The translations under genes were made by a program, and so were the position numbers. Shown piece after piece: positions 8,027 through 40,214 of a stretch of 47,761 bases of DNA; within the stretch, counting starts at the first letter, position 1; every line of letters begins with the position of its first letter. The stretch is taken from the IMG/VR virus record IMGVR_UViG_3300048565_000032. One strand, 5' to 3'. This stretch comes from a virus. A model generated the notes under the pieces. It had not been told where the DNA came from. It searched no databases and was given only the letters and a program-made list of their open reading frames with translations.

Positions 8027-8069
8027 GGGGACGTAAGTCTCTCGGGCCGGCGTAGCGTCCCGAGGCGTG
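8027..8069 (+). promoter_or_regulatory. Conserved intergenic element, copy 1: GGGGACGTAAGTC-N12-GTAGCGTCCC-N5-GTG(start)
   Basis: Same two boxes at the same 25-nt offset as at 11564-11605. The arms GGGACG/CGTCCC are inverted. TAGCGT (8053-8058) lies 8 nt upstream of the GTG start at 8067. Confidence 0.45.
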
Positions 8070-10901: not shown

Positions 10902-10902
10902 C

Positions 10903-11247
10903 ATGCGTTACTTGCTTTCTCTCACGTTCCTTCTCGCCGCTTGCGGCGTCCTGAACCTCGGCTCGACGAACGCCGACGGCACGCCGAAGACGCCGATCGA
11001 CGCGATGCAGGCGATCCGCGAGGTCGGCGACGCGGCCCTGATCACCTACGGGTCGCAGTGGCTGAAGGAGCACGTCCCCGGTCTCGTCGAGCAGCTCGAC
11101 GCGGACGGCAACGGTCGCCTATCGCTCGCGGAGATCGAGTCGCAGGTCGACCTCAACTCGCCGGGATCTCTGACCACGCTGCTGGTGATCCTCGTGGAAC
11201 TGCACGAGGCGCAGAAGGCACGCAAGGCCGCGGGCCTGTCGGTGTGA
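10903..11247 (+). CDS. Lipoprotein with an EF-hand-like calcium loop
   Basis: Lipobox LLAAC at residues 9-13. Canonical DxDxNGxLxxxE loop DADGNGRLSLAE encoded at 11098-11133. Confidence 0.55.
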   Translation: MRYLLSLTFLLAACGVLNLGSTNADGTPKTPIDAMQAIREVGDAALITYGSQWLKEHVPGLVEQLDADGNGRLSLAEIESQVDLNSPGSLTTLLVILVELHEAQKARKAAGLSV

Positions 11248-11573
11248 GGCGTGTTCACGTCCTCGCGGTGGCGCTGCTCGCGGCTGCGTGCGTGGCAGCG
11301 CCACAGTCGCTTGGCTTCGTCGAGACGGTGCAATCGATGGCGCGCGAAGGCCGCGTCAGCGCAGAGGCGGCGGATGAAGTGGTGAACGCATACCTCGACA
11401 TGCGCGCAGGCCCTTCGTGGTGGGAGCCGTTGCTGCGCGACACCTGGAACTTCGCGCTCCTCCTGCTCGGTTCCGCGGCGTCGGTGATCTGGGTGCGCTA
11501 CGCACCGCCGAAGCTCGGTGGCCGTGGCGCCCCGGAAGTGGCCCGCCAGAAGCAGCGCGCACGGGGGACGTAA
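11244..11573 (+). CDS. Lipoprotein with a C-terminal TM anchor (u-spanin-like topology)
   Basis: GTG at 11244 overlaps the previous stop (GTGA). Has lipobox LLAAAC, a C-terminal TM segment NFALLLLGSAASVIWV and a basic tail. The track lists only the longer 10941 frame. Confidence 0.45.
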   Translation: MRRVHVLAVALLAAACVAAPQSLGFVETVQSMAREGRVSAEAADEVVNAYLDMRAGPSWWEPLLRDTWNFALLLLGSAASVIWVRYAPPKLGGRGAPEVARQKQRARGT

Positions 11574-20612: not shown

Positions 20613-21251
20613 ATGGGCTACTGGGACACGGTGGTGACGAACGCGTATCTGGCGTCTCGGCAGGCGAACCAGAACTACGGGGCGATCGCGGACGCAGGCA
20701 CGGTCTTGACGGCCGGGGGAGCCCTCACGCAGGCGATCGGCGTCTTCGCGTCGGTTCTGAACGAGAAGAACCAGCTGAAGGCCGGTGCTCTGACGGCGCA
20801 GTTCCAGTCGTCGGTGGCAGCCATCAGCGCCCGCAGGGCAGAGAAGGACGCACAGGCCTTGATGGAGGCCGGGCAGACCGAGATCGGGCTCCTGGGGATG
20901 CGCTACGCGCAGGAGAAGGCGGCCCAGCGAACGTCCACCGCTGCCGGAGGTGTGGTGGTCGGCACCGGTAGTTCTGCGGAGGCTCTGGCCAGCACCGAGC
21001 TGGCGAAGAAGCTCGACGCGCGCGCGATCAACCTCAACTCGCTCGGGCAGGTCAGCGCTGCGCGCGCTCGTAGCGTCAACGCCTCGAACGAGAGTCTGCT
21101 CGCGCGCGCCTCGGCGCGGAACCTCTCACGGTCCGCTTCGACCATCAACCCGGGGCTGGGCGCTCTCACCAGCCTGATCGGGTCGAGCGGTGCCGTCGCT
21201 ACCCAATGGGTGGCCGGCAAGCGCGCGGAGCTATACGCTCGTCGTTTCTAG
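20613..21251 (+). CDS. Putative internal virion protein (Ala/Gly/Ser-rich, 212 aa)
   Basis: Position after the nozzle gene, and composition. ATG at 20613 is 1 nt after the previous stop. Confidence 0.4.
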   Translation: MGYWDTVVTNAYLASRQANQNYGAIADAGTVLTAGGALTQAIGVFASVLNEKNQLKAGALTAQFQSSVAAISARRAEKDAQALMEAGQTEIGLLGMRYAQEKAAQRTSTAAGGVVVGTGSSAEALASTELAKKLDARAINLNSLGQVSAARARSVNASNESLLARASARNLSRSASTINPGLGALTSLIGSSGAVATQWVAGKRAELYARRF

Positions 21252-21253
21252 CC

Positions 21254-29300: not shown

Positions 29301-32064
29301 CAGCGAAGCGAGGGCGCGGTTCGCCGCTGCCGAGCAGCGCGCTCTGCAGAAGGCGACCACCCCTGTCCGCGTCCTGCTCGACTCCGCTCGCGAGGCCGCA
29401 CGTCTCTCGTTGGAGCGGTCGAAGGTCGCCGACGTGGACCCGCGCAAGCTGACGGGCACCTTGGACTACATCACCCGCAACCTGCACGAGGCGCAGCGCA
29501 AGGGCGACACCGACTCGATGATCATCTGGAAGCGGAAGCAGCTGCTCTACCACATGCTGGTGGCGCAGGCATACGAGGCGAAGCAAGAGATCGCGTCGGC
29601 ACGCGACGAGTTCCGCAAGATGTTCCGTTCCGACAAGAAGCTGGCGAAGGAGCGCAACGTCGACCTCGTGCTGGCGGCGCGGTGGGTGCTGTCGAAGTTC
29701 GGCCTGACCAGCGAACTGCAGGCGAAGGCGTCCGAGACGGCTCTCGCCACCGCGCAGGAGAACGACCCCGAGCGGCTCGAAGACACGAAGCCTCTGATCG
29801 ATGCCGCAGTCGCCGGCGCGAAGCCTTTCGACCAGCTCACGCTGGCGGAGTTCCGCGACCTGCGCAACACGGTCCGCTACCTGTGGGCGCGCAGCAAGCG
29901 CGACATGGAGATCGAGGTCTCGGGGCGCAAGGTCAAGCGCTCCGCCGCGGTCGCCGAGATGCTCGTGGAGATGAAGAAGGTGCTCGGCGAAGCGCCGGTC
30001 GAGACGAGCCCGATCACTGACGAGGCTCGCAGGTCGAGCCGCTACGCCAGCACCTTCGCGAAGCTGACGCGCATCGAGCACTGGGCGCGCAAGATGGACG
30101 GTGGGACCACGGGCCCGGTGACGACCTACTTGTTCCGCCCGCTGCGCGAACGCTACGACTCCTACATGGTCGATCGCGAGCGCCTCGTGAAGCGCATCCA
30201 CGAAGGCCTGCAGAAGCTGACGTTCAGCGACGCGAAGATCGAAGCCACGGAGCTGATCGGCGCGCCGGTGCTCAACGGCACGAAGCAGCTGCTCGGGGCG
30301 GTCCAGCACGCAGGCAACAACTCGAACCTGCGCAAGCTGTTGCTCGGCTACGGGTGGACCGAGGATCTCGGCAAGGGTGAGTTCAACCGCTCGCGGTGGG
30401 ACAACTTCTTGACGCGCATGATGGCGGAAGGGCACCTGACCAAGGAGCACCTCGACTACCTGCAGATGGTCTGGACGCTCAACGAGAAGGAGCTGAAGCC
30501 GATCGCGCAGAAGGTCAACCGCGAAGTCTACGGTCTGTTCTTCGAACAGATCGAGGCGACGCCGTTCGAGACGCCGTGGGGCACCTACGCCGGCGGCTAC
30601 ATGCCGGCGAAGCCCGACCCGGACCACCCACGCAACAGCGACATCCGTCAGCGGGAAGCGCTCGACGGGATCCAGGCGATGGAGAGCGACTTCCGCAACT
30701 CGATGTCCGGCACGGCGCGCGGCTTCACGATCTCACGCAACCTCTCGACTCGTCCGCTCACTCTCGACATCCGGCTGCAGTCGCGCCACATCGACGAGGT
30801 GCTGCGCTTCGTGCACATGCAGCCTGCGCTGCGCGACGTGAAGGGACTGCTGAAGGACCGTGAGTTCGCCAGCTACTTGAACGGCGTCGACCCGACCGCG
30901 ATCAAGGACATGCTGATCCCGTGGCTCGAAGACGTCGCGCGCAACCAAGTCACGAAGCCCAGCTCGATGCCCGCGCTCGACAAGTTCTTCGGCTTCCTGC
31001 GCCGCAGCACCGGCTTGAACTTCATGTTCGCCTCGTTCCGCAACGCCGCGCAGCAGATCACCGGGCTCAGCAACGTCCTCGTCTACGTGAAGGGTCGCCA
31101 CGTCCGTGACGCGATGTGGCGCTACTACACCAGCGCGCCGAGCACGACGAACTGGGTGGTCGAGCGGTCGAAGTTCATGCAGTCGCGCCTGCGCGATCAG
31201 GTCGGGCAGCTGCACGACGACATCGACCTCCTGCTCGATCCGTCGTGGATGGGCAACCTGAAGCGCTGGACCAACAAGCACGGCTACTTCGCTCAGCGGT
31301 TCATGCAGAACCAAGTCGACGTCGTCGCGTGGCTTGCCTCCTACCAGCAGGAGATGGAGAAGTCCGGGGCCGACGTGAGTGACGCCGACGCCGTCGCCGC
31401 CGCGATCGCCGAGGCTGACGCTGTCGTGCGCCTGACGCAGGGCAGCGTCACCTCGATCGACACCGCTGCCTACGAGCGTTCCTCGGCCTTCGCCCGTCTC
31501 TTCACGCAGTTCAGCTCCTACTACAACACGGTCCTGAACCAGATCACGTCGGCACCGCCGGGGTCGAAGGCCCGCGCCTCGCTGCTCGGGCTGGTCATGC
31601 CGGCGTTCGGTGCGGCCGTCATCGCCGCGGTCGCCTCGGGCGGCGCGGAGTTCGACGACCGGGACGAGAACGGCACCATGGACGAATACCTGGAGTGGCT
31701 GTTCTCGACCCAGGCGCGCGCTGGGCTGGCCACAGTGCCCGGATTCGGCCCGCTCCTGGCGCAGGCCGCGTCGGGGGATAGCCGCGCTGGCGACCGCCTG
31801 ACGCCCGCGCCGGCGTGGTCCTCGCTGCAGGCGCTGGCCCGCTCGGTGTCGAACCTCGCCAGCGGCGACCCGCGAGGCGGCGGCCGGCAAATCTACGACG
31901 CGTTCACGGTGTTCGCGGTGGCCACCGGCATCCCGGTCGGGGGCCTGGGGCGGTCGATCGGCTACGCGGTCGACGTCGCGAGAGGCGACGTCGTGCCGCG
32001 CCACTTGGCGGATCGCATCCGCGGCACCCTGAGCGGCAACGCCGGCTTCGGCACGCGACGCTAG
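23311..32064 (+). CDS. Giant polyvalent virion protein (2,917 aa): N-terminal hydrophobic region, ART-like (H-Y-E) domain, HDxxGH domain, HExxH metallopeptidase motif, C-terminal TM segment
   Basis: Uninterrupted 8,754-nt ORF. FRNWFGDSKVVDEKGQPLVVYHGT...GKFYFASS...EGYDGIV lies at about 25200-25680. IFRIVHDYFGHVKEG lies at about 27900. HETAH is at 28276-28290. The TM-like segment LLGLVMPAFGAAVIAAVASGG lies near 31580. Confidence 0.7.
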   Translation: MSGLSLPPNATTPTADQLTEIRRRQEAAQAAEKDQRMMAVFRQAVTINPEARAEAESISKRLGKPVEALTDNIDVAREMLKVRELQETRRQYPNLDKRLDNLEFTSLVHDDLGNLKLTEDTFDWVKRNFRTGKFMNERGEIGARMMAGLSNSDDTLRLEQLKLLTQDAGQDTGFVASALQLSGQMIGPMAKSFAASTAAAGAVSLFSGPGATVTGPAAFTTTMLASTFAQTAVIEGGNAFLDMRDKGYGEDVSMFSAAFVGLANGALETVGLGIVLNPIRKAVIRRTANKLGQALARPTTKEAITTLAKDYFASVFGEAGQEGVQEFVNVIGEAFARDATDPNLPAPSWGEIGERVSDAFITTAKGMALLGLPAPAIRFHMDTRAAADAKEHQNFMLGLKKGAAESKLRQRNPSVYKDYLRKTAEGSPVEKLYLDGKVFSETLQQLDNVEGSDVTGPVASQQLEAAMPGILERVAEAARTNSDVTIDTAEFAAKLTETAVGDALMPHTRPSESARSFAEVEARAEDVKAMKAEADELLQEKRTTDKEFVESADRVEENLYQQLNATGVLTEKAMSRAVAQQYVSFVVVNAAQLKMTPEEFYKRYPYRVFAAEAQPRDSAAFDQTGDRRTDSPEFRNWFGDSKVVDEKGQPLVVYHGTASTFDTFSKQKAQDKEGRRLGMGWGAGKFYFASSGEAASSAAQFAEMTGRGKQPQVMPVYLSMRKPIDAGSYLARVAARVAKGATRDAAIAQTDREVRKEGYDGIVDHVSGGIAVFDPTQIKSVNNRGTYDPTDPNVLNQLGDSRVKTPTPAVRKLLKSLTPAEQRKITDKTAAKVIAQLKKLPSAKEMAAVAQGGVAKRGWYRESAAALEAVFGADAPRFAMLLAALSPQTSVEQNLTNALNVWKTWIDAGRPTGRDAIIDVMASSVQGKSRESVLEAWIPNSVRALTTDSPSGSLLSGPKVNSFFRNLIGDTTEVTLDAWMANYALVDQAMFGGSLTKSDSGKGTGYLAFSARVRETAALLTKETGKTWTPAEVQETIWSWAKTLYELQTGEASATQLLAEGKLTDELINSTPDFSNLFHEPNYATILNEAGYGAQLEILRGTRGSADVQLGQEAGSGSEAEATAGEARRRLQLQAAKRLERLREQRATASALRNGFEQLGLTDDESGDVGGGAAAGQSPVYGTAREGSTRVRAVHYSKQPRTFLNGAAYGTGLSGQERSRVAGDPILGQRIYFYVDAGTGITPEIGVGTVGHEVVLENVYDINEDPLGIIAEWKKQRAETGATLNDMELAIHTAGFDGYFVPAVGAAVLVGPQHTNVSVRQIGDTNGPQTDRSNQAPQGAVPDPSGVRGGSGVLDESFRQSPVDDAPLRGLPQTVRHAGEDVAFGPFRTAREAAARYMERAGLEYNPPRDYVQVDRARATRIAQAFEEMKHDPGSPEVQAAYDAMIDETIAQWQVIKETGLQVEFIDGPDPYQSPRDAILDVTQNNHLYVFPTTSGFGGSESANVDISGNPLLRVVEGEEISGRPVQANDIFRIVHDYFGHVKEGVGFRARGEENAWQQHMAMYSPLARKAATSETRGQNSWVNFGPFAESNQTANGADTQYAPQKIGLLPDWVVEEGYAGDALAAGERKKPQGTFSPRTLTALFYKKANISTVLHETAHYYLTVYADMAARPDATPMMRANMQTLLDWFGVKDLATWNALSIEQQRKHHEAFAYNYEVYAFEGKAPSKEMKTIFARFAEWLRVFYKDLLERRNRVYRREFGTDLPMLTKEVRQVMDRMLASEEAVALTYAQRDLLPVFQTQEESGFDDAKWAAYQAMWQEERDEAVAEVTRASLRNVQWLSGAEGKVAKALQARNKEERARIRREVVQEVQNNPRDRARRWLRKGEVVQPDGTVDVEPKGTPHKLDRATVVSMLPPGTDLKPLSGMLKNDGLHPDHVAEALGGEFKTGRALLDALIEMRPFEDIVNDRTDQRMLAEHAELVEGTPEWRDFVNRAVNSEARARFAAAEQRALQKATTPVRVLLDSAREAARLSLERSKVADVDPRKLTGTLDYITRNLHEAQRKGDTDSMIIWKRKQLLYHMLVAQAYEAKQEIASARDEFRKMFRSDKKLAKERNVDLVLAARWVLSKFGLTSELQAKASETALATAQENDPERLEDTKPLIDAAVAGAKPFDQLTLAEFRDLRNTVRYLWARSKRDMEIEVSGRKVKRSAAVAEMLVEMKKVLGEAPVETSPITDEARRSSRYASTFAKLTRIEHWARKMDGGTTGPVTTYLFRPLRERYDSYMVDRERLVKRIHEGLQKLTFSDAKIEATELIGAPVLNGTKQLLGAVQHAGNNSNLRKLLLGYGWTEDLGKGEFNRSRWDNFLTRMMAEGHLTKEHLDYLQMVWTLNEKELKPIAQKVNREVYGLFFEQIEATPFETPWGTYAGGYMPAKPDPDHPRNSDIRQREALDGIQAMESDFRNSMSGTARGFTISRNLSTRPLTLDIRLQSRHIDEVLRFVHMQPALRDVKGLLKDREFASYLNGVDPTAIKDMLIPWLEDVARNQVTKPSSMPALDKFFGFLRRSTGLNFMFASFRNAAQQITGLSNVLVYVKGRHVRDAMWRYYTSAPSTTNWVVERSKFMQSRLRDQVGQLHDDIDLLLDPSWMGNLKRWTNKHGYFAQRFMQNQVDVVAWLASYQQEMEKSGADVSDADAVAAAIAEADAVVRLTQGSVTSIDTAAYERSSAFARLFTQFSSYYNTVLNQITSAPPGSKARASLLGLVMPAFGAAVIAAVASGGAEFDDRDENGTMDEYLEWLFSTQARAGLATVPGFGPLLAQAASGDSRAGDRLTPAPAWSSLQALARSVSNLASGDPRGGGRQIYDAFTVFAVATGIPVGGLGRSIGYAVDVARGDVVPRHLADRIRGTLSGNAGFGTRR

Positions 32065-32141: not shown

Positions 32142-32166
32142 CGAGAAAAGACTCCGCGGCTAGGGA

Positions 32167-32291
32167 TGTGACAGCAGGTGGCTTCGCCTCGGCCAGCGGC
32201 GCTTGCGCGCCGGCAGGATTCGAACCTGCGTATCTTTGCGGTGAAAGATGGAAGCCGTCACGGCATCCGCGGATTGACAACAGCTGTCACA
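32167..32291 (-). ncRNA. Candidate Y-like RNA (unit 4): 9-bp terminal stem enclosing a hairpin and tRNA-like module 3 (32179..32229)
   Basis: 5' TGTGACAGC (32291-32283) pairs perfectly with 3' GCTGTCACA (32175-32167). Inside: GCAGG-TTCGAAT-CCTGC, CGGCGC-GCAA-GCGCCG, C, TGGC-CGAGGCGAA-GCCA. Confidence 0.55.
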
Positions 32292-32373
32292 CACCGAATC
32301 CGGCGACGAGCCGTTGGTCGACCGGTGCGTGACAGCCGAAGAAGAGAGCCCGACAAGGGATCGTCACAGCTTT

Positions 32374-32427
32374 GCCCTACCGTTTGGGCTACGGGCCCGT
32401 GGTGGGCCTGCCGAGATTCGAACTTGG
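32374..32427 (-). ncRNA. Permuted tRNA-like module 2 (T arm, closed acceptor helix, D arm)
   Basis: CCAAG-TTCGAAT-CTCGG (one A-C mismatch), CAGGCCC-ACCAC-GGGCCCG, TA, GCCC-AAACGGTA-GGGC. Confidence 0.6.
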
Positions 32428-32494
32428 ATGCAAGCCGGGACAGCATTCGGGCAGTGAGAGTCGGCGACAAGGGATCGCAGCAGTCTTCTTTCTC

Positions 32495-32547
32495 GCTCTA
32501 CCGTTGAGCTACACCGGGCAGGGCCCGATGGCTGGACTCGAACCAGC
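32495..32547 (-). ncRNA. Permuted tRNA-like module 1 (T arm, closed acceptor helix, D arm)
   Basis: GCTGG-TTCGAGT-CCAGC, CATCGGG-CCCTG-CCCGGTG (7 bp including one G-U), TA, GCTC-AACGGTA-GAGC. Confidence 0.65.
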
Positions 32548-32787
32548 AACCTAGACCTTAGAGGGGATGTAGACCGCTACTGCATTCGCCGAAATGGTGC
32601 GCGGACAAGAGGTGTGACAGGTGTGTCTTGGCAAAGCATCGGGGAGCCCTGATCAAGGGGCCCGGTAGCCTCGTGGTGAAGATGAAGCCCGTCACGGCAT
32701 TCCGCGTCTGGGTGTGCGACAAGGGTCGGCCGGAGCGAGGTATCATGGCGAGATGAACGCCCCGGTCAGCATTCGCACGCCGGCACT

Positions 32788-34404
32788 CTAGCGCCCGAAC
32801 TCACGAATGCAAGAGGGCCAGTCCTTGTTCTGTAGCCAAGCGGCGACAGACGTGAACACCGCGTCCGAGAAGCCGGCGACGCGGAGAGTGTCCTTCCGCT
32901 TCGGCAGCTGGTCGGTGGCGTTCGGGCTGATGTTGATGCGGACCTGCTTCGCGTTCGGGTTCTTGCGCTTGATGTCGTCCCACGCGGCCACAGTGCCGGG
33001 CGCCCGGTCGCGGGTGTGGGTCGCGTAGTTGTAGGTGAAGCTCATGCCACTTGAGTCGAGCCAGCTCTCGTTGTCCGAGATCAGGATGAACGTGTCCACG
33101 TCGCGCTTCTCGCTCGCGAGCAGCCGCATCGGCGCCGAGCAGTCCGTGCCGCCGCCCGCGTTCGCCAGCTTCTGCGCCATCGTCGGGATGCTGTCGAGCG
33201 GGTTCAACGGGACAATGACCGCATTGTTCGCGAACGTCATCACGCGCGTCTGCGGCGAGCGCCGCACGATGGCCGCCGCGAACAGCGCCGCCACGTCCAT
33301 GTAGGTGATCTCGGTCGACGCGTTGCCGCGATACCCGGTCACCGGGTTCTTCATCGAACCGGAACAGTCGACCGCGACGTAGACGTTGCCTTCGAGCGCG
33401 GGCACCGCCGCGAGCGAGTGATCGAGCGCCTGCCCGAGTGCATACTTCAGCTCGTGCGGCATGTCGGCGTCCTTGGCGACCATCGAGAACGCCTGCAGCA
33501 GCTGGTAGGGGAACTGCTTCGCCTTCAGCACCTCCTCCTTCGAGGAGAGGCGCGCGACGATCTTCTTCAGCAGCTCGGGGTTGCTCTTGAAGACGCCGTG
33601 CCGCTGCGCGGTCACGAGGTTCATGCGCGTGAACTGGAAGCCGCCCCGATCGAACAGCTGCTCCCAGTGCGCCGTCGTCAGCGGGACGGTGTCGATCATG
33701 TTGAACGGCACGTCCGGCAGCGGCTTCGTCTGGTCGGCGCGGAACGCGAGCGTGTCCTGCACCAGCTGCGGCAAGGCCTCCGGGTTCTCGACCGGCTTGC
33801 CGATCAGCATCCGGTAGAGGGTGGCGCGCTCGCGGTCGAGGGTGAAGCCGAGCGTGTCCATGTCCTTCGACACCGGTCGCGGGCGTGCGAGCTTGATGAT
33901 GTCGCCGAGGCTCGGATCCTTGGCGATCGACTGCTTCCACAGGTAGTCGACGTTCGCGCGGTTCAGCCAGTTCGACACCAGCCGCTTGCCGACCGAGCCG
34001 AGCGAGCGGCGGCCGAAGCGACCGGAGCGCACCGCCTGCACGAAGTTCGAGAGCATCTTCGCGTTGTTGATCACCTCGTCGAACAGCGCCGCGGTGAACG
34101 CGCCGCTCTTCTTGCCGAAGAGGTAGGCCAGCAGAACCGCCGGCGTGTCCTTCATGAAGCCAGCGCCGCGCGCGTAGCGCGCGACCTGCGCGACGAACGC
34201 GTCGTCGCACTTCGCGGCCAGCTCCAGAATCTGCGCGAGCTGAGTCTCGGCCGAGACGTAGAACGTGTCGCCGAAGAAGCCGGTCACCGCCAGCTGCGCG
34301 AGAGCCTCCTCGGGCTCCATCGCGTAGGCCGGCGCGCCGGCGTTGTTGGTGGCGTCGGGGGCGACGTAGAGGGACGGGGAGGAAGCAAAGGTCTTCTTGT
34401 TCAT
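32788..34404 (-). CDS. rsr: Ro60/Rsr orthologue (TROVE domain + vWA domain with MIDAS motif)
   Basis: N-terminus TNNAGAPAYAMEPEEALAQLAVTGFFGDTFYVSAE...VARYARGAGFMKDTPAVLLAYL is TROVE-like. The C-terminal vWA domain has DCSGS (VAVDCSGSM), GGGTDCSAP and ILISDNESW. ATG 34404 is preferred (GGAG 9 nt upstream); an alternative ATG lies at 34446. Confidence 0.85.
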   Translation of the reverse strand: MNKKTFASSPSLYVAPDATNNAGAPAYAMEPEEALAQLAVTGFFGDTFYVSAETQLAQILELAAKCDDAFVAQVARYARGAGFMKDTPAVLLAYLFGKKSGAFTAALFDEVINNAKMLSNFVQAVRSGRFGRRSLGSVGKRLVSNWLNRANVDYLWKQSIAKDPSLGDIIKLARPRPVSKDMDTLGFTLDRERATLYRMLIGKPVENPEALPQLVQDTLAFRADQTKPLPDVPFNMIDTVPLTTAHWEQLFDRGGFQFTRMNLVTAQRHGVFKSNPELLKKIVARLSSKEEVLKAKQFPYQLLQAFSMVAKDADMPHELKYALGQALDHSLAAVPALEGNVYVAVDCSGSMKNPVTGYRGNASTEITYMDVAALFAAAIVRRSPQTRVMTFANNAVIVPLNPLDSIPTMAQKLANAGGGTDCSAPMRLLASEKRDVDTFILISDNESWLDSSGMSFTYNYATHTRDRAPGTVAAWDDIKRKNPNAKQVRINISPNATDQLPKRKDTLRVAGFSDAVFTSVAAWLQNKDWPSCIREFGR

Positions 34405-34452
34405 CTTCAGGGTCTCCAGTAGTCCCGCAGGTCTACTGGAGTTCACCCTTGA

Positions 34453-37400
34453 CTACAAGCCCGGCCTGTGCCGATCCCACATCGCGCCCTGCCATGGGTA
34501 GGCGCGCAGCTCCGTCTGCTCGGTCGCCATGTAGCGATCCATGTAGTCGAAGAACGCCGGCTGGTTCCAGAACGGGCGCAGACCCATCGCGCGCATGGCG
34601 AGCACGCACCCCGACCACGAGATGGCGGAGCAGCACCGCCGGTAGTCGTTCTCGCCTGGGTTCTTCACCCACCGGTGGTCGTCGCCTGCCGGCGACTGCG
34701 CGTGGAAGTTCCCCCACTCCGGCAGACCGACGTCGGCCGCGGTGTAGCCGCCGAAGCCCCAGTTGTAGACGCCCGGCGAGGTCTCCTGCACGTAGAACGT
34801 CTGCCCATCCTCGCTGAAGGGGATGACGTTGCGCGCGTCGCCGGGCGTGAAGATGGTCGGCGCGTAGGTGGTGCCGGCCGCCAGCATCGCGTCGTCGTGG
34901 AGCACGCGCCCAGCGAAGAGGATCGGAAACTTGCGCCCGTTGCAGTGGCCGTTGACACCCCACTTCGCCCCGAGCTTCATGTGCTCGAAGTTGTCGATCC
35001 CCATCTGCGTCAACGCGATCACGATCTTCCGCTTCTGTGCGTTGGTCAGGTTCGTGTTCGCGAGCAGCGCGGCGTCGCCGATCTGCCGAGTGAACCGCTG
35101 GTAGTAGTCGCCGAGCCCGGCCTGCGGGTGCATGTAGCGCGAGGTCCAGTTCGGGAAGTGATCGAGCCACAGCGTTGCGTAGAACCAAGCCTCTACCTCT
35201 GCGACGCTCGGCGCGCCGGCAGCCGGGGTGAGATCCGCGAGGAGCGCGTAGTCGAGGTCTTGCTCGCGGAAGCGCACGGTCTTGTCCGCGCCGGCGTAGG
35301 CGGGTCGGAACGCGTCGGCGCTCGGCGCCGCCGCCAGAACGGTCAACACCGCAGCCGTCTGCAGCGCGGACCACTGCCCGTTCGCCGGCGCGAAGGCCGG
35401 CGTCGTCGAGATCAGCGACCCGGTTGTGATCGTCAACGGCAGCTGCGCGCCGACGTTCATCGCCGGCGTCCACCGTGGCGCGTTGGTCTCGTCGCGCAGG
35501 AAGAAGTCGCCGGGGTTCACCGTCGAGATGTCGCTGTCGTAGAGCGACGAGTCGTAGCCTTGCTTGCCGTCGGCGCGCGGCGCCGGGCTGAGCATCGACC
35601 CTCCCGTGGTGCGGCCCGTCGGCTGGACCACGACGCCCGGCGTGATCGCCGCGATCGTGACCGGGCCGACCACCCACGGGTCACCGTTGCAGAAGCGTCC
35701 GGCCGGGCGCGGCTGCGCGAAGGTCCAGGTCACCCCGAACTGAGTCATCGACGACGCTGTCGGCGCCGGTGCCGCCACGACACCGGGGGCCAGCCACGCC
35801 GTTTCCTTGGTCTCGTTCGCTCCGCTGGTCAGCTGCGCCCACACCGCGCCCGCCTGTGGGTCGGCCGGGTCGTTGCGGAGCACCACCGCCGGCGCCAGAC
35901 CCATGCCGAAGTAGTTGAACACCTCGTCCGCGGGCGCCGTGCCGGCGACCGGGCGCTGCGGGCTCGACACCCAGCGCCCACTCTGCAGGAGCCACGCGTC
36001 GCGCATGACCGCCCTGGCGCCCTCCAGGGCGATGCTTCGAGCGAGGGGGATGTCGAGCACCCGTCCGGCCAGATCGAGGCCGTAGCACCCGACGCCCTGC
36101 TGCCAGGGGATCCACCACGCCCCCGCCCCGAGGCGCGGGTCATCGACCCTGACGTCCCAGATCGCGAGGGGGCGCGTCCCGAGCGCGGCGTAGACCAGAC
36201 GCACGCGGTCCTCGTAGCGCGCCCTGACGCGCGCAGCGAGCGCCCGGTCCTCCAGGTCGCGCCACAGGCCGACGACCAGGATCCCCGCCCAGCCGACGCT
36301 ACGGGCCGCGTCAGGGCCGCTGGTCGACCACCCAGGCCGCACGGTCTCGCCGAAGAGGAAGAGGCGGGCCTGCTGCTCCAGCTCCCACTGCAGGGCAGCG
36401 GAGTCGGTCAGGCGGGCAGCTGCGATGACGGTGTTGTAGAGCCAGTGCTCGCGATCGGGGCCCAGCCACCCGTGGGTGTCGGGCAAAACGCCCGTCTTGC
36501 CGAGGCGGTCTGGGGAGACCCCGAGGTTGAAGTGGGGGCGGCCGTTCCAGGTGACGCAGTTCGGGTGCGCGATCGGATCCGCGAAGGAGCCGTCCGCTTC
36601 GAGGTGGTGGCAGGGCCGGGCAAGCATCTTCAGCGCCGCGAAGTAGGCGACCTGCTCCGCCCCGACGCCGCCCGGCAACAGGCTTTCGCCGCGCACGAAG
36701 ACCTGATCCTCCTGCGCACCGGTGTCGCCGGCGGTCGGGTTCGCGCCGATCGTGCCGGCCTCCCAGGTGTGCAGCCGGCGGAGGGCTTCGGGCCACTGGC
36801 CCATCCAGGCGCGGACATCGAATCCGGGCGGGTAGCTCGGGTTGCCGTCCGGCAGCAAACGAGCAATGGCGACGGCGGTCGCCGCGCGCAGCCCGGCGGC
36901 GTTCACTTGGAACCACCCGGCCTCGTCGACATCGCCGAGGATCCGCCGCCACGCGAGCGTGACCGCGGCGCCGCGCGCCTGACCGTCCGCGAAGGCGGTC
37001 CCCGCCGGCACGATCGGACTGCCCCAGCCGGCGCCCAGGACGTGCACGTAGGCGTCGCCGAACCGGAACGTCAGGGCGTCGCTGGTCTCGCCCATGTCGG
37101 GGATCGAGCCGTTGCTGCAGCAGACCACTACCTCTCCGGTGGCCATGCCCGGCTGGTCAGGGAGCCACCGCAGCCACGCGTCGACGTTCAGCATCGGCGT
37201 GACACGCCCGCGCATGCGACAGCGCCAGCCGGCACCGTCGGGGGTGACGGACACCAAGCCGAGGGGCGCGCCGTTCACCGTCGCGAGGCCGCCGAAGAAC
37301 GCGACCGGGTCCGCCGGCAAGCTCAGCTCGGGCGCCGGCGACGGTGCCGCGTCGGCGAGGCGCAGGTCTCGCTCTTCGTGCGGCGCGAGCGTGACGTGAA

Positions 37401-37605
37401 CATCGAGCGCCCAGACGTCGAGCCCGATCTTGCGCCCGAGCACGAAGCGCTCACCCGTCGGCAGGGTGCCGGCGTCGTGCGTCGGGCGCGTGTCGGTGGT
37501 CGTCCGCAACCAGCCGGTGAAGGGGTGCGGCGCGTAGTTCGCGACGCGGACGGTCTGCGCGGTAGCCGCGCAGCTGAGGAGGAACGCAAGCAGTGTTCGG
37601 AGCAT
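34453..37605 (-). CDS. Large secreted (or lipo-) protein of unknown function (1,050 aa)
   Basis: Signal peptide MLRTLLAFLLSCAATAQT (ATA-Q cleavage site or an LLSC lipobox). Trp/Gly/Pro-rich globular composition, with Cys motifs GHCNGRKF and YRRCCSAISWSGC. I recognised no catalytic family. Confidence 0.7.
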   Translation of the reverse strand: MLRTLLAFLLSCAATAQTVRVANYAPHPFTGWLRTTTDTRPTHDAGTLPTGERFVLGRKIGLDVWALDVHVTLAPHEERDLRLADAAPSPAPELSLPADPVAFFGGLATVNGAPLGLVSVTPDGAGWRCRMRGRVTPMLNVDAWLRWLPDQPGMATGEVVVCCSNGSIPDMGETSDALTFRFGDAYVHVLGAGWGSPIVPAGTAFADGQARGAAVTLAWRRILGDVDEAGWFQVNAAGLRAATAVAIARLLPDGNPSYPPGFDVRAWMGQWPEALRRLHTWEAGTIGANPTAGDTGAQEDQVFVRGESLLPGGVGAEQVAYFAALKMLARPCHHLEADGSFADPIAHPNCVTWNGRPHFNLGVSPDRLGKTGVLPDTHGWLGPDREHWLYNTVIAAARLTDSAALQWELEQQARLFLFGETVRPGWSTSGPDAARSVGWAGILVVGLWRDLEDRALAARVRARYEDRVRLVYAALGTRPLAIWDVRVDDPRLGAGAWWIPWQQGVGCYGLDLAGRVLDIPLARSIALEGARAVMRDAWLLQSGRWVSSPQRPVAGTAPADEVFNYFGMGLAPAVVLRNDPADPQAGAVWAQLTSGANETKETAWLAPGVVAAPAPTASSMTQFGVTWTFAQPRPAGRFCNGDPWVVGPVTIAAITPGVVVQPTGRTTGGSMLSPAPRADGKQGYDSSLYDSDISTVNPGDFFLRDETNAPRWTPAMNVGAQLPLTITTGSLISTTPAFAPANGQWSALQTAAVLTVLAAAPSADAFRPAYAGADKTVRFREQDLDYALLADLTPAAGAPSVAEVEAWFYATLWLDHFPNWTSRYMHPQAGLGDYYQRFTRQIGDAALLANTNLTNAQKRKIVIALTQMGIDNFEHMKLGAKWGVNGHCNGRKFPILFAGRVLHDDAMLAAGTTYAPTIFTPGDARNVIPFSEDGQTFYVQETSPGVYNWGFGGYTAADVGLPEWGNFHAQSPAGDDHRWVKNPGENDYRRCCSAISWSGCVLAMRAMGLRPFWNQPAFFDYMDRYMATEQTELRAYPWQGAMWDRHRPGL

Positions 37606-37632
37606 GGGGCGCGAGTCTACGCCCCGCCCCGA

Positions 37633-37902
37633 TCACTTGCGAGGTGCGAGCTTCCTCTCGTCGAGGGACACGCGGAGCGCGTCCTTGATCGTGCGCTCGG
37701 CCAGACCGGAACCCTTGACGATCCGGCTCAGCACCCAGTCGCTGGCGCCTTGGTCGCCGTTCATCAGGTTGTAGAGGTGGGGGCGAGAGATCCCGAAGTC
37801 CTTCGCGACGGACGCGAGGGGGCGGGGCTTGTCGCCCTTCTTCAGGCCACGACGAGCGTGGCGCTCCACGAGATCACGAAACGACGAAGTCACACGAACC
37901 AT
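37633..37902 (-). CDS. XRE/Cro-type helix-turn-helix DNA-binding protein (89 aa)
   Basis: LASVAKDFGISRPHLYNLMNG is a classic HTH. ATG at 37902 is preferred over the track start at 38004, which would abut the polymerase stop at 38008-38010. Confidence 0.6.
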   Translation of the reverse strand: MVRVTSSFRDLVERHARRGLKKGDKPRPLASVAKDFGISRPHLYNLMNGDQGASDWVLSRIVKGSGLAERTIKDALRVSLDERKLAPRK

Positions 37903-38007
37903 ACGAACACCAGGGTCAGGAGAATCAGGACGCACGCGGCGACGTTCTCGCCGGGTGAACATTGATCGTGGGTCTCGGGCATGGGTGTAGACGCTAGCAT
38001 ACAACTG

Positions 38008-40029
38008 TCACCCGCGGAAGTAGGCACCGCGATATCCTTCGACGGCGATTGGCAGATCCGGTGCCCACTCGGGCTGTTCGGCCATCAGGTCGCAGAACTC
38101 GCGCACGTCGCCGGTGCCCGTCGGCACCTCGCTGAGGATCGAGTCGTGAACGTGCATCACGATGTCGTAGGGGGTGACGGCGTCGACGCGCAGCAGGGCC
38201 CGCGCCATCAGGTCGCGCGCTACGGCCTGCGTCGCGTTCTCCGCGAGCTTGCCGCCGTAGGTGCTCTCGACCCGCATGCCGCCACCCTTCGGCGCGAAGT
38301 AGCGGATCTCCTCCGTCTCGAACTCGCGCGTCACGATGTCACCGTTGTCGTCGACGGTTTCGATCTTCTTCTTGACCCACTTGGTGTGGGGGCGCCAGTA
38401 GCGGATCGAACGCCCGCTCGGCAACCGCATCTGCACGCAGGTGCCATCACCGCGGAGCATCACGAGGCCCGCATAGAAGACCCGGTGCGGCGTTGCGATC
38501 GCGTCCCGGAAGGCCTGTTCGATGTCGGCCCAGAACTGCACGATCATCGGGTTGGCGGCGCGCCAACCGAGCTGCACGCGGCGCGCTTCCTTGCGCGTGA
38601 GGACCACCTTGTAGCCGAGCGCTGCGCTGACGAACGTGAGGGCACCCATGCCGTAGCCGAGCGCGAGACGCTGGACCTTGCCGAGCTGTCGGTTCGTGCT
38701 GCCGATCTTCGCGGCGTCCTCGACATAGATGTCGCGCCCCGACGCGAAGACGTCGAGCACGTCGTCCTGGCCGGCGAGCCACGCGAGCACCCGCGCCTCG
38801 ACCGCCGAGAAGTCGCCGCCGATCAGCTCCTTGCCGGGCGGGGCGATGATCGTCGAGCGCAGCGCTTGCGAGAGGCCGTCGAGCGGCTGACCGACGACGA
38901 ACTCCAGCCCCTCAAGGTCACCCTCGCGAACCATCGTGTGCACCAGCGAGCGCGCGCCGCCGAGCAAGTCCTTCGGCAGGTTGTGCACCTGCAACCCCTC
39001 AGACGACCACCGACCGGTGTTCGCCTTGGAGTAGCGGAGCGCGAAGTGCAGGCGCCCGTCGCGGCCGACCATCTTCGGCACGCGGTTGAGCTTCGCGAGC
39101 GACGTCGCCTTGCCGGCTTCGAGGCGGGTCTCCAGCACCGACTGCACGTCAGAGGCGAGACCCTCCTTCTTCAGCAGGTCGAGCACCGTCTTGCGATCGA
39201 TCGACGGTGTCATCTCGAACGAACCGTCCTTGCGCTTGCGCCTGACCATCGGCAGGACCACGCCGCGCTCCTTGAGCCACACCTTCATGCCGGGAGCTGA
39301 GATCGCGTTCTTCAGGTAGGCACCGGAGTCGTCGTAGGCGCTTTCCGCGAGCTGCAGCTTCCTGGCGCGTGTCATCCGCGACATGGTGTCGACGAGCGGC
39401 AGGTCGAGGTAGACGCCGCGGCGTCCGATCTTGCGGTCGAGGCGCATCGTGAGCACCTCGTCGACCGGGACCCGCGGCAGCCGCCACCAGCAGCTGAACA
39501 TCGAGAGCACGTCGGTCTCGCAGTAGGAGATCAGCTCGGCCTCGTCCTGCGGGGACAGCACCGGGTAGACGTAGCCGTCCGGGCCATCCTCTACGCGGGC
39601 GACGCGCTTCATCAGTTCGCTGCCCTCCTTGTCCTTCGGGATCGCTCCCTTCAGTGCGGCGGCGAGCGCACCCAGACCGAGCGGTAGGTTTGCCGCGGCG
39701 GCGTAGTGGAGCGTGTCTTCCCAGGTCTCGATCGCCGGCAGCGGCCACCCGTGGCGCTTCGACAACACGTTCTCGATGATCGCCATCTCGAACGACGCGT
39801 TGTGTGCGAGAAGAGGACGCCCGGCGAGGATGTGCGCCACCGCCCAAGATGGCACTTCCTCGCCGGGCTTCCAGGTAGCTGTCTTGACGACGCCGGTCGG
39901 GCTGTCACACAGGCCGAACACGGCGCAGTGAACACCCGTAGACGGGTGTTCACTGTAGGCCCAGGCACCGGAGACCTGCGGTGTGGTGGCGCTGTAGGTC
40001 TCGATGTCGATGCCCAGGATGGTGGTCAT
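38008..40029 (-). CDS. Family-A DNA polymerase with 3'-5' exonuclease domain
   Basis: Exo I ILGIDIETYS. Pol motif A GGDFSAVEARVLAWL, motif B RQLGKVQRLALGYGMG, motif C MHVHDSILSEV. ATG at 40029 overlaps the upstream stop (ATGA). Confidence 0.9.
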   Translation of the reverse strand: MTTILGIDIETYSATTPQVSGAWAYSEHPSTGVHCAVFGLCDSPTGVVKTATWKPGEEVPSWAVAHILAGRPLLAHNASFEMAIIENVLSKRHGWPLPAIETWEDTLHYAAAANLPLGLGALAAALKGAIPKDKEGSELMKRVARVEDGPDGYVYPVLSPQDEAELISYCETDVLSMFSCWWRLPRVPVDEVLTMRLDRKIGRRGVYLDLPLVDTMSRMTRARKLQLAESAYDDSGAYLKNAISAPGMKVWLKERGVVLPMVRRKRKDGSFEMTPSIDRKTVLDLLKKEGLASDVQSVLETRLEAGKATSLAKLNRVPKMVGRDGRLHFALRYSKANTGRWSSEGLQVHNLPKDLLGGARSLVHTMVREGDLEGLEFVVGQPLDGLSQALRSTIIAPPGKELIGGDFSAVEARVLAWLAGQDDVLDVFASGRDIYVEDAAKIGSTNRQLGKVQRLALGYGMGALTFVSAALGYKVVLTRKEARRVQLGWRAANPMIVQFWADIEQAFRDAIATPHRVFYAGLVMLRGDGTCVQMRLPSGRSIRYWRPHTKWVKKKIETVDDNGDIVTREFETEEIRYFAPKGGGMRVESTYGGKLAENATQAVARDLMARALLRVDAVTPYDIVMHVHDSILSEVPTGTGDVREFCDLMAEQPEWAPDLPIAVEGYRGAYFRG

Positions 40030-40214
40030 TTGCCGACCGCCAGGGCCACGAAGAGAAGGAGGAAGACGAGCGTGGCAGGCACCCACAAAGGCGCGAGCAC
40101 CCACCCCCAGCTCCAGGCGATGACGCCGCAGAGCTTGAGCACGATGAACGCGATCGTGAGGGCTCCGAGGAACCCGAGGGAACTCCGAGCATCCTTCGCA
40201 GGTTCTGACGTCAT
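40026..40214 (-). CDS. Small membrane protein (two TM segments, 62 aa)
   Basis: LGFLGALTIAFIVLKLCGVIAWSWGWVLAPLWVPATLVFLLLFVALAV. Coupled to both neighbours. Confidence 0.5.
   Translation of the reverse strand: MTSEPAKDARSSLGFLGALTIAFIVLKLCGVIAWSWGWVLAPLWVPATLVFLLLFVALAVGK

What the first reader, a model, noticed from the sequence alone, without database searches (positions are those of the whole stretch)
34453..37902. Accessory operon head: XRE-HTH regulator and a 1,050-aa secreted protein of unknown fold directly upstream of rsr
After the DNA polymerase gene, the leftward arm continues with a small Cro/XRE-like HTH protein, then a very large protein with a Sec-type leader (MLRTLLAFLLSCAATAQT). 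This protein has no other TM segment and no motif I can assign. It seems to have two halves, with the second starting near FGVTWTFAQPRPAGRFCNGDPWVVGP, and it carries Cys-containing motifs (GHCNGRKF, YRRCCSAISWSGC). A periplasmic or extracellular 110-kDa product encoded with early genes and coupled to an RNA-surveillance module is unexpected. Candidate roles include a polysaccharide depolymerase or lyase released at lysis, a superinfection-exclusion factor or an unconventional cell-wall enzyme, which could account for the missing endolysin.
Basis: partly seen in the sequence, partly recalled or inferred. Interest (0 to 1): 0.65.

Follow-up and report, generated by a model that had tools for sequence, protein, structure and literature searches.

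The report
Exported two-module sugar-enzyme-like phage protein
A phage that probably infects Planctomycetota carries a 1,050-residue exported protein made by fusing two uncharacterised host envelope-protein families; it most likely cuts or remodels a host surface sugar polymer, it is a mobile cargo gene shared by many unrelated phages, and it is not functionally tied to the neighbouring Ro gene.

Summary
ORF 34453..37605 (-) is a real 1,050-aa gene with a Sec-type leader, no other TM segment and two halves that join at residues 610-622.

- **Both halves** are stand-alone families of exported Planctomycetota proteins, with no Pfam, NCBIfam or PDB sequence match.
- **N half:** AlphaFold2 pLDDT 95. 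It is a beta-sandwich plus an (alpha/alpha)6 six-hairpin barrel, weakly like sugar epimerases and glycoside hydrolases.
- **C half:** pLDDT 90, phrog_34846, at least ~2,000 clusters at 50% identity, and no PDB fold neighbour. In other phages it sits inside tail-fibre-like or LamG-bearing proteins.
- **Distribution:** the N family occurs in 50 IMG/VR contigs of at least three phage types, at variable positions near packaging and head genes. About half the copies lack the signal peptide.
- **Ro adjacency:** it was seen in no fetched locus that reaches past the gene (the one close relative ends inside it). The gene is the distal end of the replication arm, not an operon head.
- **XRE call:** the 89-aa ORF is real but its HTH assignment is weak.

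Best reading (inferred): an exported enzyme that degrades or modifies an envelope glycan, aiding egress or lysis or destroying receptors. No canonical endolysin was detected in the window. Function is unproven.

The parts
34453..37605 (-). Complete gene for the 1,050-aa pre-protein (113.4 kDa; about 111.7 kDa after leader removal)
   Evidence: ORF listed. GC3 0.92. More than 230 homologues. Mass and pI.
37558..37605 (-). Signal peptide, residues 1-16 (MLRTLLAFLLSCAATA), with predicted signal peptidase I cleavage before Gln17
   Evidence: The n/h/c layout is read from the sequence. The A-x-A|Q junction is conserved immediately before the folded domain in homologues. AlphaFold2 gives a helix at 2-13 with lower pLDDT, and the fold starts at residue 18. 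SignalP was not available.
35776..37557 (-). N module, residues 17-610: beta-sandwich (~18-250) plus (alpha/alpha)6-like barrel (~260-605)
   Evidence: Stand-alone homologues of 590-650 aa cover only this part. AlphaFold2 pLDDT 95.4, pTM 0.94. Foldseek finds the AGE/cellobiose 2-epimerase, GH88, GH105, GH76 and GH8 barrels and the two-domain GH92, GH15, GH63 and GH94 enzymes, best E = 1e-3. Family-invariant D384, H387, R435 and near-invariant C332, H333, H358, E386 are all present.
35740..35775 (-). Pro/Ala-rich linker, residues 611-622 (VVAAPAPTASSMTQ region)
   Evidence: N-only proteins end at about query residue 609-613 and C-only proteins start at about 617-623. pLDDT falls at the end of the N model and at the start of the C model.
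34456..35739 (-). C module, residues 623-1050: beta-sandwich plus helical domain, member of phrog_34846; conserved R989 and C991-C992, G890, K892, E932, D933, H968
   Evidence: phrog_34846 E = 8.5e-51. 966 homologues in the word-indexed search. 2,272 clusters at 50% identity at E <= 1e-30. AlphaFold2 pLDDT 90.2, pTM 0.92. No PDB fold hit at E < 1. BFVD finds only two unnamed proteins, one of 706 aa like the mycobacteriophage homologue, at E = 1e-29 and 1e-28. Invariant columns.
37633..37902 (-). 89-aa ORF upstream, a possible XRE/Cro-like helix-turn-helix protein
   Evidence: GC3 0.82 from the ATG at 37902; upstream GC3 is 0.44. HTH_31 E = 0.011, below the cut-off. PHROG regulator E = 0.029. 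Two homologues only, one from a related phage with the same PolA-XRE order.
37903..38007 (-). Conserved non-coding spacer between the DNA polymerase gene and the XRE-like ORF; possible internal promoter or regulatory site
   Evidence: Blocks GTATGCTA..GTCTACACC and CGAGAACGTCGCCGCGTGC are conserved in three related contigs. The motif is unique in the window. No sigma-70-like match was found.

Best explanation
**What the gene encodes.** The product is a pre-protein that the Sec system carries across the cytoplasmic membrane. Signal peptidase I probably trims it after Ala16. The released soluble protein of about 112 kDa has two independent enzyme-like modules joined by a short Pro/Ala linker.
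- **Module N** is a beta-sandwich plus a six-hairpin (alpha/alpha)6 barrel. This architecture is typical of glycoside hydrolases, unsaturated-uronyl hydrolases and sugar epimerases.
- **Module C** is a beta-sandwich plus a helical domain from a large unannotated family (phrog_34846). In other phages that family is built into tail-fibre-like or lectin-bearing proteins.

**Origin.** Both modules are copies, 45-58% identical, of exported proteins of a high-GC Planctomycetota lineage. That lineage is the likely host.

**Proposed mechanism.** The fused protein works in the periplasm or at the cell surface of the infected cell. There it cleaves or remodels a host envelope or surface polysaccharide. 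This weakens or clears the envelope layer so that progeny can get out, as an endolysin-like or lysis-accessory role.

**Gene behaviour.** It is mobile cargo exchanged among unrelated phages, not part of the Ro module.

**Shown:** the ORF, the leader, the module boundaries, the predicted architectures, the homology and the distribution.
**Inferred:** the carbohydrate substrate, catalysis, the site of action and the role in egress.
For: **Export**
- The leader and its conserved A-x-A|Q junction.
- No further TM segment.
- Cellular relatives of both halves carry signal or lipoprotein-like leaders.

**Sugar-enzyme architecture of N**
- A high-confidence model. All meaningful PDB neighbours are six-hairpin carbohydrate enzymes.

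**C domain is linked to glycan recognition or attack**
- It is fused to LamG/ConA-like lectin domains in mycobacteriophage and Phycisphaerae proteins.
- It is fused to tail-fibre or virion-structural PHROG segments in low-GC phages.
- A cellular copy lies beside GT2, AsnB-like and LpxA-like genes.

**Both modules look intact**
- The window protein keeps every family-invariant residue.

**Functional linkage of N and C**
- They are fused in at least 12 proteins.
- They are adjacent separate genes in viral contig L074.

**Importance to phages**
- The N family is in 50 IMG/VR contigs and a prophage, across GpA/portal_2, Terminase_6/Mu-portal and T7-like lineages.

**Consistent with a lysis-type role**
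- No canonical endolysin or holin was detected in the window.
- In lambda-like (GpA) phages the gene occupies the slot just before the terminase genes.
- Copies exist both with and without a signal peptide, as is established for endolysin families.
- In T7 the lysozyme gene also lies among the DNA-metabolism genes (established knowledge).
- Small TM ORFs overlap the stop codon in two phage types.
Against: - No biochemical evidence exists, and there is no match to any known peptidoglycan-hydrolase family.
- Fold matches for N are weak: best E = 1e-3, TM 0.2-0.4. The closest barrels include epimerases, so hydrolysis is not established.
- C has no structural neighbour at all. It could be a binding module rather than a catalytic one.
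- Holin-like neighbours are rare, in 5 of 58 loci.
- The gene's position varies widely. This fits a dispensable moron better than a core lysis gene.
- A cleaved, constitutively exported lytic enzyme expressed with replication genes would need some restraint. I cannot identify one.
- The 701-aa internal virion protein has a weak 'endolysin' PHROG hit, so wall-degrading capacity may reside elsewhere.
Confidence: 0.35

Rival explanations
1. Receptor-destroying or superinfection-exclusion enzyme. Once exported, the protein strips or alters the surface glycan that this phage, or competing phages, use as receptor. This blocks secondary infection and stops progeny being trapped on debris. It would be functionally analogous to exported early proteins such as T5 Llp, but enzymatic.
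For: - It is encoded on the replication arm rather than with late genes, and it is exported.
- The C domain occurs in tail-fibre-like proteins elsewhere, so it probably recognises a surface glycan.
- Between the window and its close relative L095 the protein is only 52% identical, while PolA is 82% and the XRE-like ORF 76-86%. It is closer (58-59%) to copies in unrelated phages. This rapid turnover or exchange is typical of host-surface interaction genes.
Against: - About half of the phage copies of the N family lack a signal peptide. Those copies could not act on the surface before lysis.
- There is no match in PADLOC.
- In most other phages the gene is co-oriented with late packaging and head genes.
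Confidence: 0.2
2. Auxiliary metabolic gene. The phage carries a host-type secreted carbohydrate-active enzyme that boosts polysaccharide breakdown and carbon supply of the infected cell, as proposed for viral glycoside hydrolases in soil and sediment viromes.
For: - Both modules are 45-58% identical to chromosomal, non-prophage genes of Planctomycetota that sit among housekeeping genes.
- The signal peptide is retained.
- The insertion sites vary in a moron-like way.
Against: - The cellular copies are not in polysaccharide-utilisation or transporter clusters.
- SP-less phage copies exist.
- Recurrence in at least three phage lineages and the repeated N+C fusion or adjacency suggest a phage-specific use.
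- The window phage looks lytic: the family scans that covered nearly all called ORFs found no integrase. That leaves little time for a nutritional benefit.
Confidence: 0.15
3. Virion-associated depolymerase or receptor-binding protein. The protein would be the missing tail spike or fibre of this podovirus, and the hydrophobic N-terminus would not be a functional signal peptide.
For: - No tail fibre was recognised in the window.
- The C domain is part of tail-fibre-like proteins in other phages and lies next to minor-tail genes in Cluster J mycobacteriophages.
- SP-less N-family genes sit between portal and capsid genes in T7-like relatives.
Against: - The leader has a conserved signal-peptidase junction shared with cellular exported homologues.
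- There is no virion-anchoring N-terminal domain, and the gene is on the replication arm.
- N-family genes are not found in tail modules.
- No 706-aa protein appears among the Omega virion proteins found by mass spectrometry. Omega was not among the phages matched, so it may lack the gene (PMC3706429).
Confidence: 0.07

Closest known systems
Six-hairpin (alpha/alpha)6 carbohydrate enzymes with or without an N-terminal beta-sandwich: AGE-superfamily cellobiose 2-epimerases (4Z4L, 3VW5), GH88/GH105 unsaturated uronyl hydrolases (3WIW, 4WU0), GH76, GH8, and two-domain GH92, GH15, GH63 and GH94 enzymes
   Same: The predicted architecture of the N module is a beta-sandwich followed by an (alpha/alpha)6-like barrel. 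Foldseek probability is up to 1.00 for the barrel.
   Different: - Sequence identity is only 9-14%, E is 1e-3 or worse, and TM is 0.2-0.4.
- There is no Pfam, NCBIfam or PDB sequence match.
- The catalytic residues cannot be mapped.
- The conserved Cys-His-His, Asp-x-Glu-His and Arg set is not that of any of these families as far as I can tell (inference).
phrog_34846 and the 706-aa LamG-bearing protein of Cluster J mycobacteriophages (for example Redno2 gp43, Dove gp42)
   Same: The C module matches the PHROG at E = 8.5e-51. It is about 30% identical to residues ~240-680 of the mycobacteriophage protein. Its model superposes at TM 0.75 on a 706-aa BFVD protein that is presumably this one.
   Different: - The mycobacteriophage protein has an N-terminal Laminin_G_3 lectin domain and no N module. 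It lies between the minor-tail genes and the lysis cassette.
- Its function is unknown. It is annotated variously as hypothetical, minor tail protein or lysin A.
Sec-exported and SAR endolysins (Oenococcus phage fOg44 Lys44, phage P1 Lyz, phage 21 R21); named from established knowledge
   Same: These are phage wall-degrading enzymes that reach the periplasm through the host Sec system rather than through a holin pore. Their families contain both exported and cytoplasmic members, as the N family does.
   Different: Those enzymes belong to known muramidase or amidase families. This protein matches none. It is five to seven times larger, and no wall-degrading activity has been shown.
Phage tailspike or soluble polysaccharide depolymerases
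   Same: A large, modular, phage-encoded, probably glycan-active protein. The C domain is shared with tail-fibre-like proteins.
   Different: Most known depolymerases are beta-helix or beta-propeller trimers with a virion-anchor domain and no signal peptide (established knowledge). This protein has a leader, six-hairpin and novel folds, and a position outside the tail module.

Membership tests
Sec/signal peptidase I secreted proteins | N-terminal basic n-region, hydrophobic h-region of 7-15 residues, and small residues at -3/-1 of the cleavage site | tested here: met
   Arg3; h-region at residues 4-14 (11-residue Kyte-Doolittle mean 2.22); A14-T15-A16|Q17. The junction is conserved across homologues. 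SignalP was not run and export has not been shown experimentally.
Bacterial lipoproteins (signal peptidase II) | A conserved lipobox [LVI][ASTVI][GAS]C, with the Cys as first residue of the mature protein | tested here: not met
   L-L-S-C12 resembles a lipobox. However, Cys12 is not conserved in homologues, whose leaders end in A-x-A|Q, and it lies only 12 residues from the start.
Six-hairpin glycosidase / AGE-like (alpha/alpha)6 superfamily (N module) | An (alpha/alpha)6 barrel fold | tested here: inconclusive
   The AlphaFold2 model has pLDDT 95 with about 11 helices in residues 264-602. Foldseek probability is 1.00 but E is only 1e-3 to 1e-2 and TM 0.36-0.41 on the target.
Six-hairpin glycosidase / AGE-like (alpha/alpha)6 superfamily (N module) | Family-specific catalytic residues (two carboxylates for GH families; a His pair for AGE epimerases) | not testable with these tools
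   Model coordinates and residue-level superpositions were not available. Conserved D300, E307, C332, H333, H358, D384, E386, H387 and R435 are candidates.
Canonical endolysins (GH19/23/24/25/108 muramidases, Amidase_2/3/5, M15/M23/CHAP/NlpC peptidases) | Sequence membership of one of these catalytic domain families | tested here: not met
   - No Pfam, NCBIfam or PDB sequence hit for either half.
- The only PHROG hit, phrog_34846, has unknown function.
Lysis cassette gene | Adjacent holin or spanin genes (small TM or lipoprotein ORFs) | tested here: not met
   In the window the neighbours are the XRE-like ORF and Ro. Across loci only 5 of 58 have a TM ORF within 700 nt downstream, and these represent two phage types.
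Tail fibre / tailspike proteins | No signal peptide, an N-terminal virion-attachment domain, and a gene in the tail module | tested here: not met
   A leader is present. The gene is on the replication arm, opposite to the tail genes. There is no tail PHROG hit on this protein. The C domain does occur in tail-fibre-like proteins of other phages.
phrog_34846 (C module) | A significant profile match over most of the domain | tested here: met
   E = 8.5e-51; residues 619-1029 match profile positions 240-643 of 706.
XRE/Cro-type HTH regulators (89-aa upstream ORF) | A match to an HTH_3/HTH_31-type profile above the curated threshold | tested here: inconclusive
   - HTH_31 scores 16.5 bits against a cut-off of 27, E = 0.011.
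- PHROG regulator E = 0.029.
- No NCBIfam hit and no phage tblastn hit.
- The segment LASVAKDFGISRPHLYNLMNG looks like a helix-turn-helix by eye.
rsr (Ro60) - Y RNA module | Conserved co-occurrence of the gene with rsr | tested here: not met
   No Ro, PolA or XRE homologue lies next to the N or N+C genes in the fetched loci. The exception is close relative L095, which keeps PolA-XRE-(172 aa)-N+C; that contig ends before the Ro position.

The most novel reading that the evidence does not exclude
The N family would be the lineage-specific lysis or egress enzyme of phages that infect a high-GC Planctomycetota clade. That would make it a new class of phage wall- or envelope-degrading enzyme built on a six-hairpin barrel, delivered either by Sec or by membrane disruption. 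The C domain (phrog_34846) would be a new-fold glycan-active catalytic domain with a conserved Arg-x-Cys-Cys centre, used both by cells as lipoproteins and by phages in tail fibres.
Probability: 0.15. Interest if true: 0.8.

Novelty: new variant of a known kind. Interest (0 to 1): 0.5.

Why it matters
**Phage biology.** As far as I know and as far as the literature searches here found, nothing is known experimentally about how phages of Planctomycetota open or cross the unusual envelope of their hosts. This gene family recurs in at least three unrelated phage lineages, and none of the three family libraries searched has a model for it. It is therefore a concrete, clonable candidate for that step.

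**Unannotated families.** Both modules define large families with confident structure predictions and no Pfam, NCBIfam or PDB counterpart. The C domain alone has at least about 2,000 clusters at 50% identity, and its predicted fold has no neighbour among solved structures. Assigning a substrate to either module would annotate thousands of bacterial and viral proteins. It might also add a new carbohydrate-active enzyme family.

The work removes a false lead. The link to the Ro/Y-RNA module is positional and specific to this phage lineage.

Tried and rejected
**Family and structure searches**
- Pfam, NCBIfam, PADLOC and PDB sequence searches, with single sequences and with profiles, gave nothing for either half.
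- hhalign of the N-half profile against the C-half profile shows the halves are not related to each other (probability 0.2%).
- The weak C-half Foldseek hits (PL17, GH47, PL8, LanC-like; E > 1, probability <= 0.06) were treated as noise.
- I considered a GH127- or LanC-like Cys/Zn site because of the conserved Cys-Cys pair. No structural or sequence support was found, so it remains speculation.

**Signal peptide type**
- The lipoprotein reading of LLSC12 was rejected because Cys12 is not conserved.

**Lysis-cassette test**
- A scan for TM ORFs downstream of N genes in 58 loci was positive in only 5.
- An earlier version of that scan missed ORFs that overlap the stop codon and was redone.

**Canonical lysozymes**
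This test has low sensitivity.

**Conserved neighbours of cellular copies**
- None was found. Neighbours included GGT, GluRS, Nqr, polyphosphate kinase and EF-P.

**Regulatory signals**
- The sigma-70 promoter and terminator scan of 31.9-38.3 kb gave no promoter, and terminators were at chance level.

**Literature**
- The Cluster J paper lists no virion protein the size of the C-domain homologue (PMC3706429).
- Searches for Planctomycetes phage endolysins and for Ro found nothing relevant.

**Identity of the window**
- The window is not in the INPHARED phage set. Only the portal gene shows 71% nucleotide identity, to Caulobacter phages Jess A and RapA.

Full report
**1. The observation**

The window is a 66% GC phage genome.
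- Its + arm carries primase/helicase, small and large terminase, a T7-type portal, the major capsid protein, tail tubular proteins A and B, internal virion proteins and a 2,917-aa polyvalent protein.
- Its - arm carries helicase, exonuclease, a gp2.5-like SSB and family A DNA polymerase.
- At the distal end of the - arm lie an 89-aa ORF (37633..37902), the 1,050-aa ORF (34453..37605), a Ro60/TROVE gene (32788..34446) and tRNA-Trp.

The 1,050-aa ORF is the true reading.
- GC3 is 0.92, and it has more than 230 homologues.
- A longer ORF on the opposite strand (34468..37965) is a high-GC shadow.

This covers the leader MLRTLLAFLLSCAATAQT, the second half starting at FGVTWTF (residue 623), GHCNGRKF (886-893) and YRRCCSAISWSGC (988-1000). 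No second hydrophobic segment exists.

**2. The signal peptide**

No predictor was available, so I used conservation.
- In the full-length phage relatives and the stand-alone cellular relatives the N-terminus varies in length and sequence but is hydrophobic.
- It ends in A-x-A|Q (or P-A|Q) immediately before the conserved (V/I)-R-V-A-N strand.
- AlphaFold2 puts a low-confidence helix at 2-13 and starts the fold at residue 18.
- This is the signature of a cleaved Sec leader.
- Cys12 is not conserved, so a lipoprotein reading is rejected.

**3. Two modules, both host-derived**

*Alignment coverage*
- BLASTP of the hits shows about 12 full-length relatives of 1,035-1,203 aa at 45-59% identity.
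- More than 100 proteins of 590-650 aa align only to residues ~1-610.
- A separate search with residues 600-1050 found 966 proteins. Most are 450-590-aa Planctomycetota proteins, and their consensus begins with a lipoprotein-like leader and an FN3-like segment.

*Relationship and size*
- The two profiles are unrelated to each other.
- An exhaustive HMMER search with the C profile found 2,272 clusters at 50% identity at E <= 1e-30.
- Some members are fused to LamG-like domains in Phycisphaerae.

*Genomic setting of the cellular copies*
- Cellular copies of N lie singly among housekeeping genes: gamma-glutamyltranspeptidase, GluRS, the Nqr operon and polyphosphate kinase.
- One pair of C copies lies beside GT2, AsnB-like and LpxA-like genes.
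- The likely host is therefore a high-GC Planctomycetota lineage (inference).

**4. Structure**

*N module*
- pLDDT 95.4, pTM 0.94.
- It consists of a beta-sandwich (~18-250) followed by an (alpha/alpha)6-like barrel.
- Foldseek against the PDB gives only weak matches (best E = 1e-3). All are six-hairpin carbohydrate enzymes.
- The barrel matches cellobiose 2-epimerase/AGE, GH88/GH105, GH76 and GH8. The sandwich-plus-barrel arrangement matches GH92, GH15, GH63, GH65 and GH94.

*C module*
- pLDDT 90.2, pTM 0.92.
- It consists of a beta-sandwich plus a helical domain.
- It has no PDB neighbour at E < 1.
- In BFVD it matches only two unnamed proteins, one of 706 aa like the mycobacteriophage homologue.

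So 'unknown fold' is right for C and only partly right for N. The window protein retains every family-invariant residue in both modules. Both modules are therefore probably functional.

**5. Where the gene occurs**

*Distribution of the N family*
- It is in 50 IMG/VR contigs and in a prophage of a 6.6-Mb Planctomycetota chromosome.
- It spans at least three phage types: GpA-terminase/portal_2, Terminase_6/Mu-portal, and relatives of the window's own T7-like lineage.

*Position and orientation*
- The gene sits just before the small terminase gene, between terminase and portal, or between portal and capsid genes.
- In those phages it is always co-oriented with the late genes.

*Signal peptides*
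- About half of the distinct phage copies start directly at M-I-R-V-A-N, with a stop codon just upstream. Those copies have no signal peptide.

*Link to Ro*
- No locus has Ro, PolA or the XRE-like ORF beside the gene.
- The exception is one close relative, L095. It keeps PolA-XRE-(an extra 172-aa gene)-N+C, and its contig ends inside the N+C gene, so whether Ro follows is unknown.
- In L095 PolA is 82% identical and the XRE-like ORF 76-86% identical, but the large protein is only 52% identical.
- That is less than its 58-59% identity to copies in unrelated phages.
- The gene is therefore exchanged cargo, and its adjacency to rsr is not a conserved association.

*Link between N and C*
- They are also adjacent as separate genes in viral contig L074. 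Together with the fusions, this argues that they act together.

**6. The C domain in other phages**
- In Cluster J mycobacteriophages a 706-aa protein (Laminin_G_3 plus the C domain) lies between the minor-tail genes and the lysis cassette. It is annotated inconsistently.
- No protein of that size is among the Omega virion proteins found by mass spectrometry. Omega was not among the matched phages either, so this says little (PMC3706429).
- In low-GC viral contigs the domain is embedded in 570-990-aa proteins that also match 'virion structural', 'tail' or 'tail fiber' PHROGs.
- This points to recognition of, or attack on, a cell-surface glycan.

**7. Function**

*Lysis genes in the window*
- PHROG scans of almost every called ORF, plus Pfam scans of most, found no canonical endolysin, holin, spanin or tail fibre.
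- The one exception is a weak 'endolysin' PHROG hit on the 701-aa internal virion protein.
- A crude phmmer test with T4, lambda and T7 lysozymes was negative.

*Features that fit an endolysin-like role*
- The slot before the terminase genes in lambda-like phages.
- The coexistence of exported and non-exported versions.
- The placement of the T7 lysozyme gene among the DNA-metabolism genes (established knowledge).

*Features that count against it*
- Holin-like neighbours are rare, in 5 of 58 loci.
- The position of the gene varies.
- There is no link to a peptidoglycan-hydrolase fold.

*Verdict*
- I commit to an exported enzyme that degrades or modifies an envelope glycan and aids egress or lysis (confidence 0.35).
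- The rivals are a receptor-destroying or superinfection-exclusion enzyme (0.2), a secreted carbohydrate-active auxiliary metabolic gene (0.15) and a virion depolymerase (0.07).
- The carbohydrate substrate, catalysis and biological role are all inferred.

**8. The XRE-like ORF and the 'operon head'**
- The 89-aa ORF is coding from 37902. Its HTH assignment is below threshold, and it has only two homologues.
- A 105-nt non-coding spacer with conserved blocks precedes it. This spacer may hold an internal promoter, but no sigma-70-like site was found.
- The genes are otherwise tightly packed. There are 27 nt between the XRE-like ORF and the large gene, including a GGGGCG...CGCCCC inverted repeat abutting the start codon that I read by eye from the sequence and did not test by folding. 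There are 6 nt before the Ro ORF.
- The cluster is the tail end of the replication arm, not an autonomous accessory operon.

**9. Novelty**
- Phage-encoded glycan-active and wall-active enzymes are a known kind.
- What is new is the pair of unannotated families, the absence of any solved-structure neighbour for module C, the Sec-exported fusion, and its spread across Planctomycetota phages.
- I rate it a new variant of a known kind, with interest 0.5.

Noticed in passing
window 32150-32781 (-): Between the Ro gene and tRNA-Trp there are three tandem sub-threshold matches to the Y-RNA-like family YrlA (RF02553): 32458-32592 at 50.3 bits, 32344-32453 at 42.2 bits and 32150-32273 at 30.8 bits (E = 3.7e-10 to 1.6e-4; gathering score 69). 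There is also a weak YrlB match at 32710-32781 (E = 0.055). This suggests a phage Ro + Y-RNA + tRNA module.
   Followed up: partly
window 23311-32064 (+): A 2,917-aa 'polyvalent' protein with LPD22, ART-PolyVal (ADP-ribosyltransferase) and DUF7178 domains occupies the gp16-like internal-virion-protein position.
   Followed up: no
window 37903-38007 (-): The 105-nt non-coding spacer between the polymerase gene and the XRE-like ORF has blocks GTATGCTA..GTCTACACC and CGAGAACGTCGCCGCGTGC. They are conserved in three related metagenomic contigs (L095-L097) and the motif is unique in the window. It is a possible phage promoter or operator.
   Followed up: partly
window 40026-40214 (-): A 62-aa ORF with two predicted TM segments (phrog_1374, unknown function, E = 7e-20) lies just upstream of the DNA polymerase coding region. 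It is the only holin-like small membrane protein I saw.
   Followed up: no
window 15021-17621 (+): The tail tubular protein A homologue matches its family only in its last ~224 residues. The preceding ~640 residues have no family match and could be the missing receptor-binding part.
   Followed up: no
window 21206-23311 (+): A 701-aa protein in the internal-virion-protein position has a weak match to an 'endolysin' PHROG (phrog_10475, E = 3.3e-11, residues 22-327) but no Pfam domain. It may be an entry-associated wall-degrading protein.
   Followed up: no
window 8067-8537 (+): A GNAT acetyltransferase gene lies between the large terminase and portal genes (Acetyltransf_1 E = 7e-7). It is conserved in related viral contigs.
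   Followed up: no
L095 541-1059: The closest relative of this phage has an extra 172-aa gene of unknown function between the XRE-like ORF and the large exported protein.
   Followed up: no
L002 13150-13323; L004 10354-10506; L006 12170-12766: In two phage types, small single-TM ORFs overlap the stop codon of the N+C gene by 4 nt. In the prophage, a 198-aa coiled-coil protein with a C-terminal TM segment follows an intervening 83-aa ORF, about 240 nt downstream of the N gene. These are possible lysis partners, but they are not general.
   Followed up: partly
L074 7272-9005 and ~10000-11455: In one IMG/VR contig a C-family gene and an N-family gene are separate and adjacent on the same strand. 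This is the unfused counterpart of the window's fusion.
   Followed up: partly
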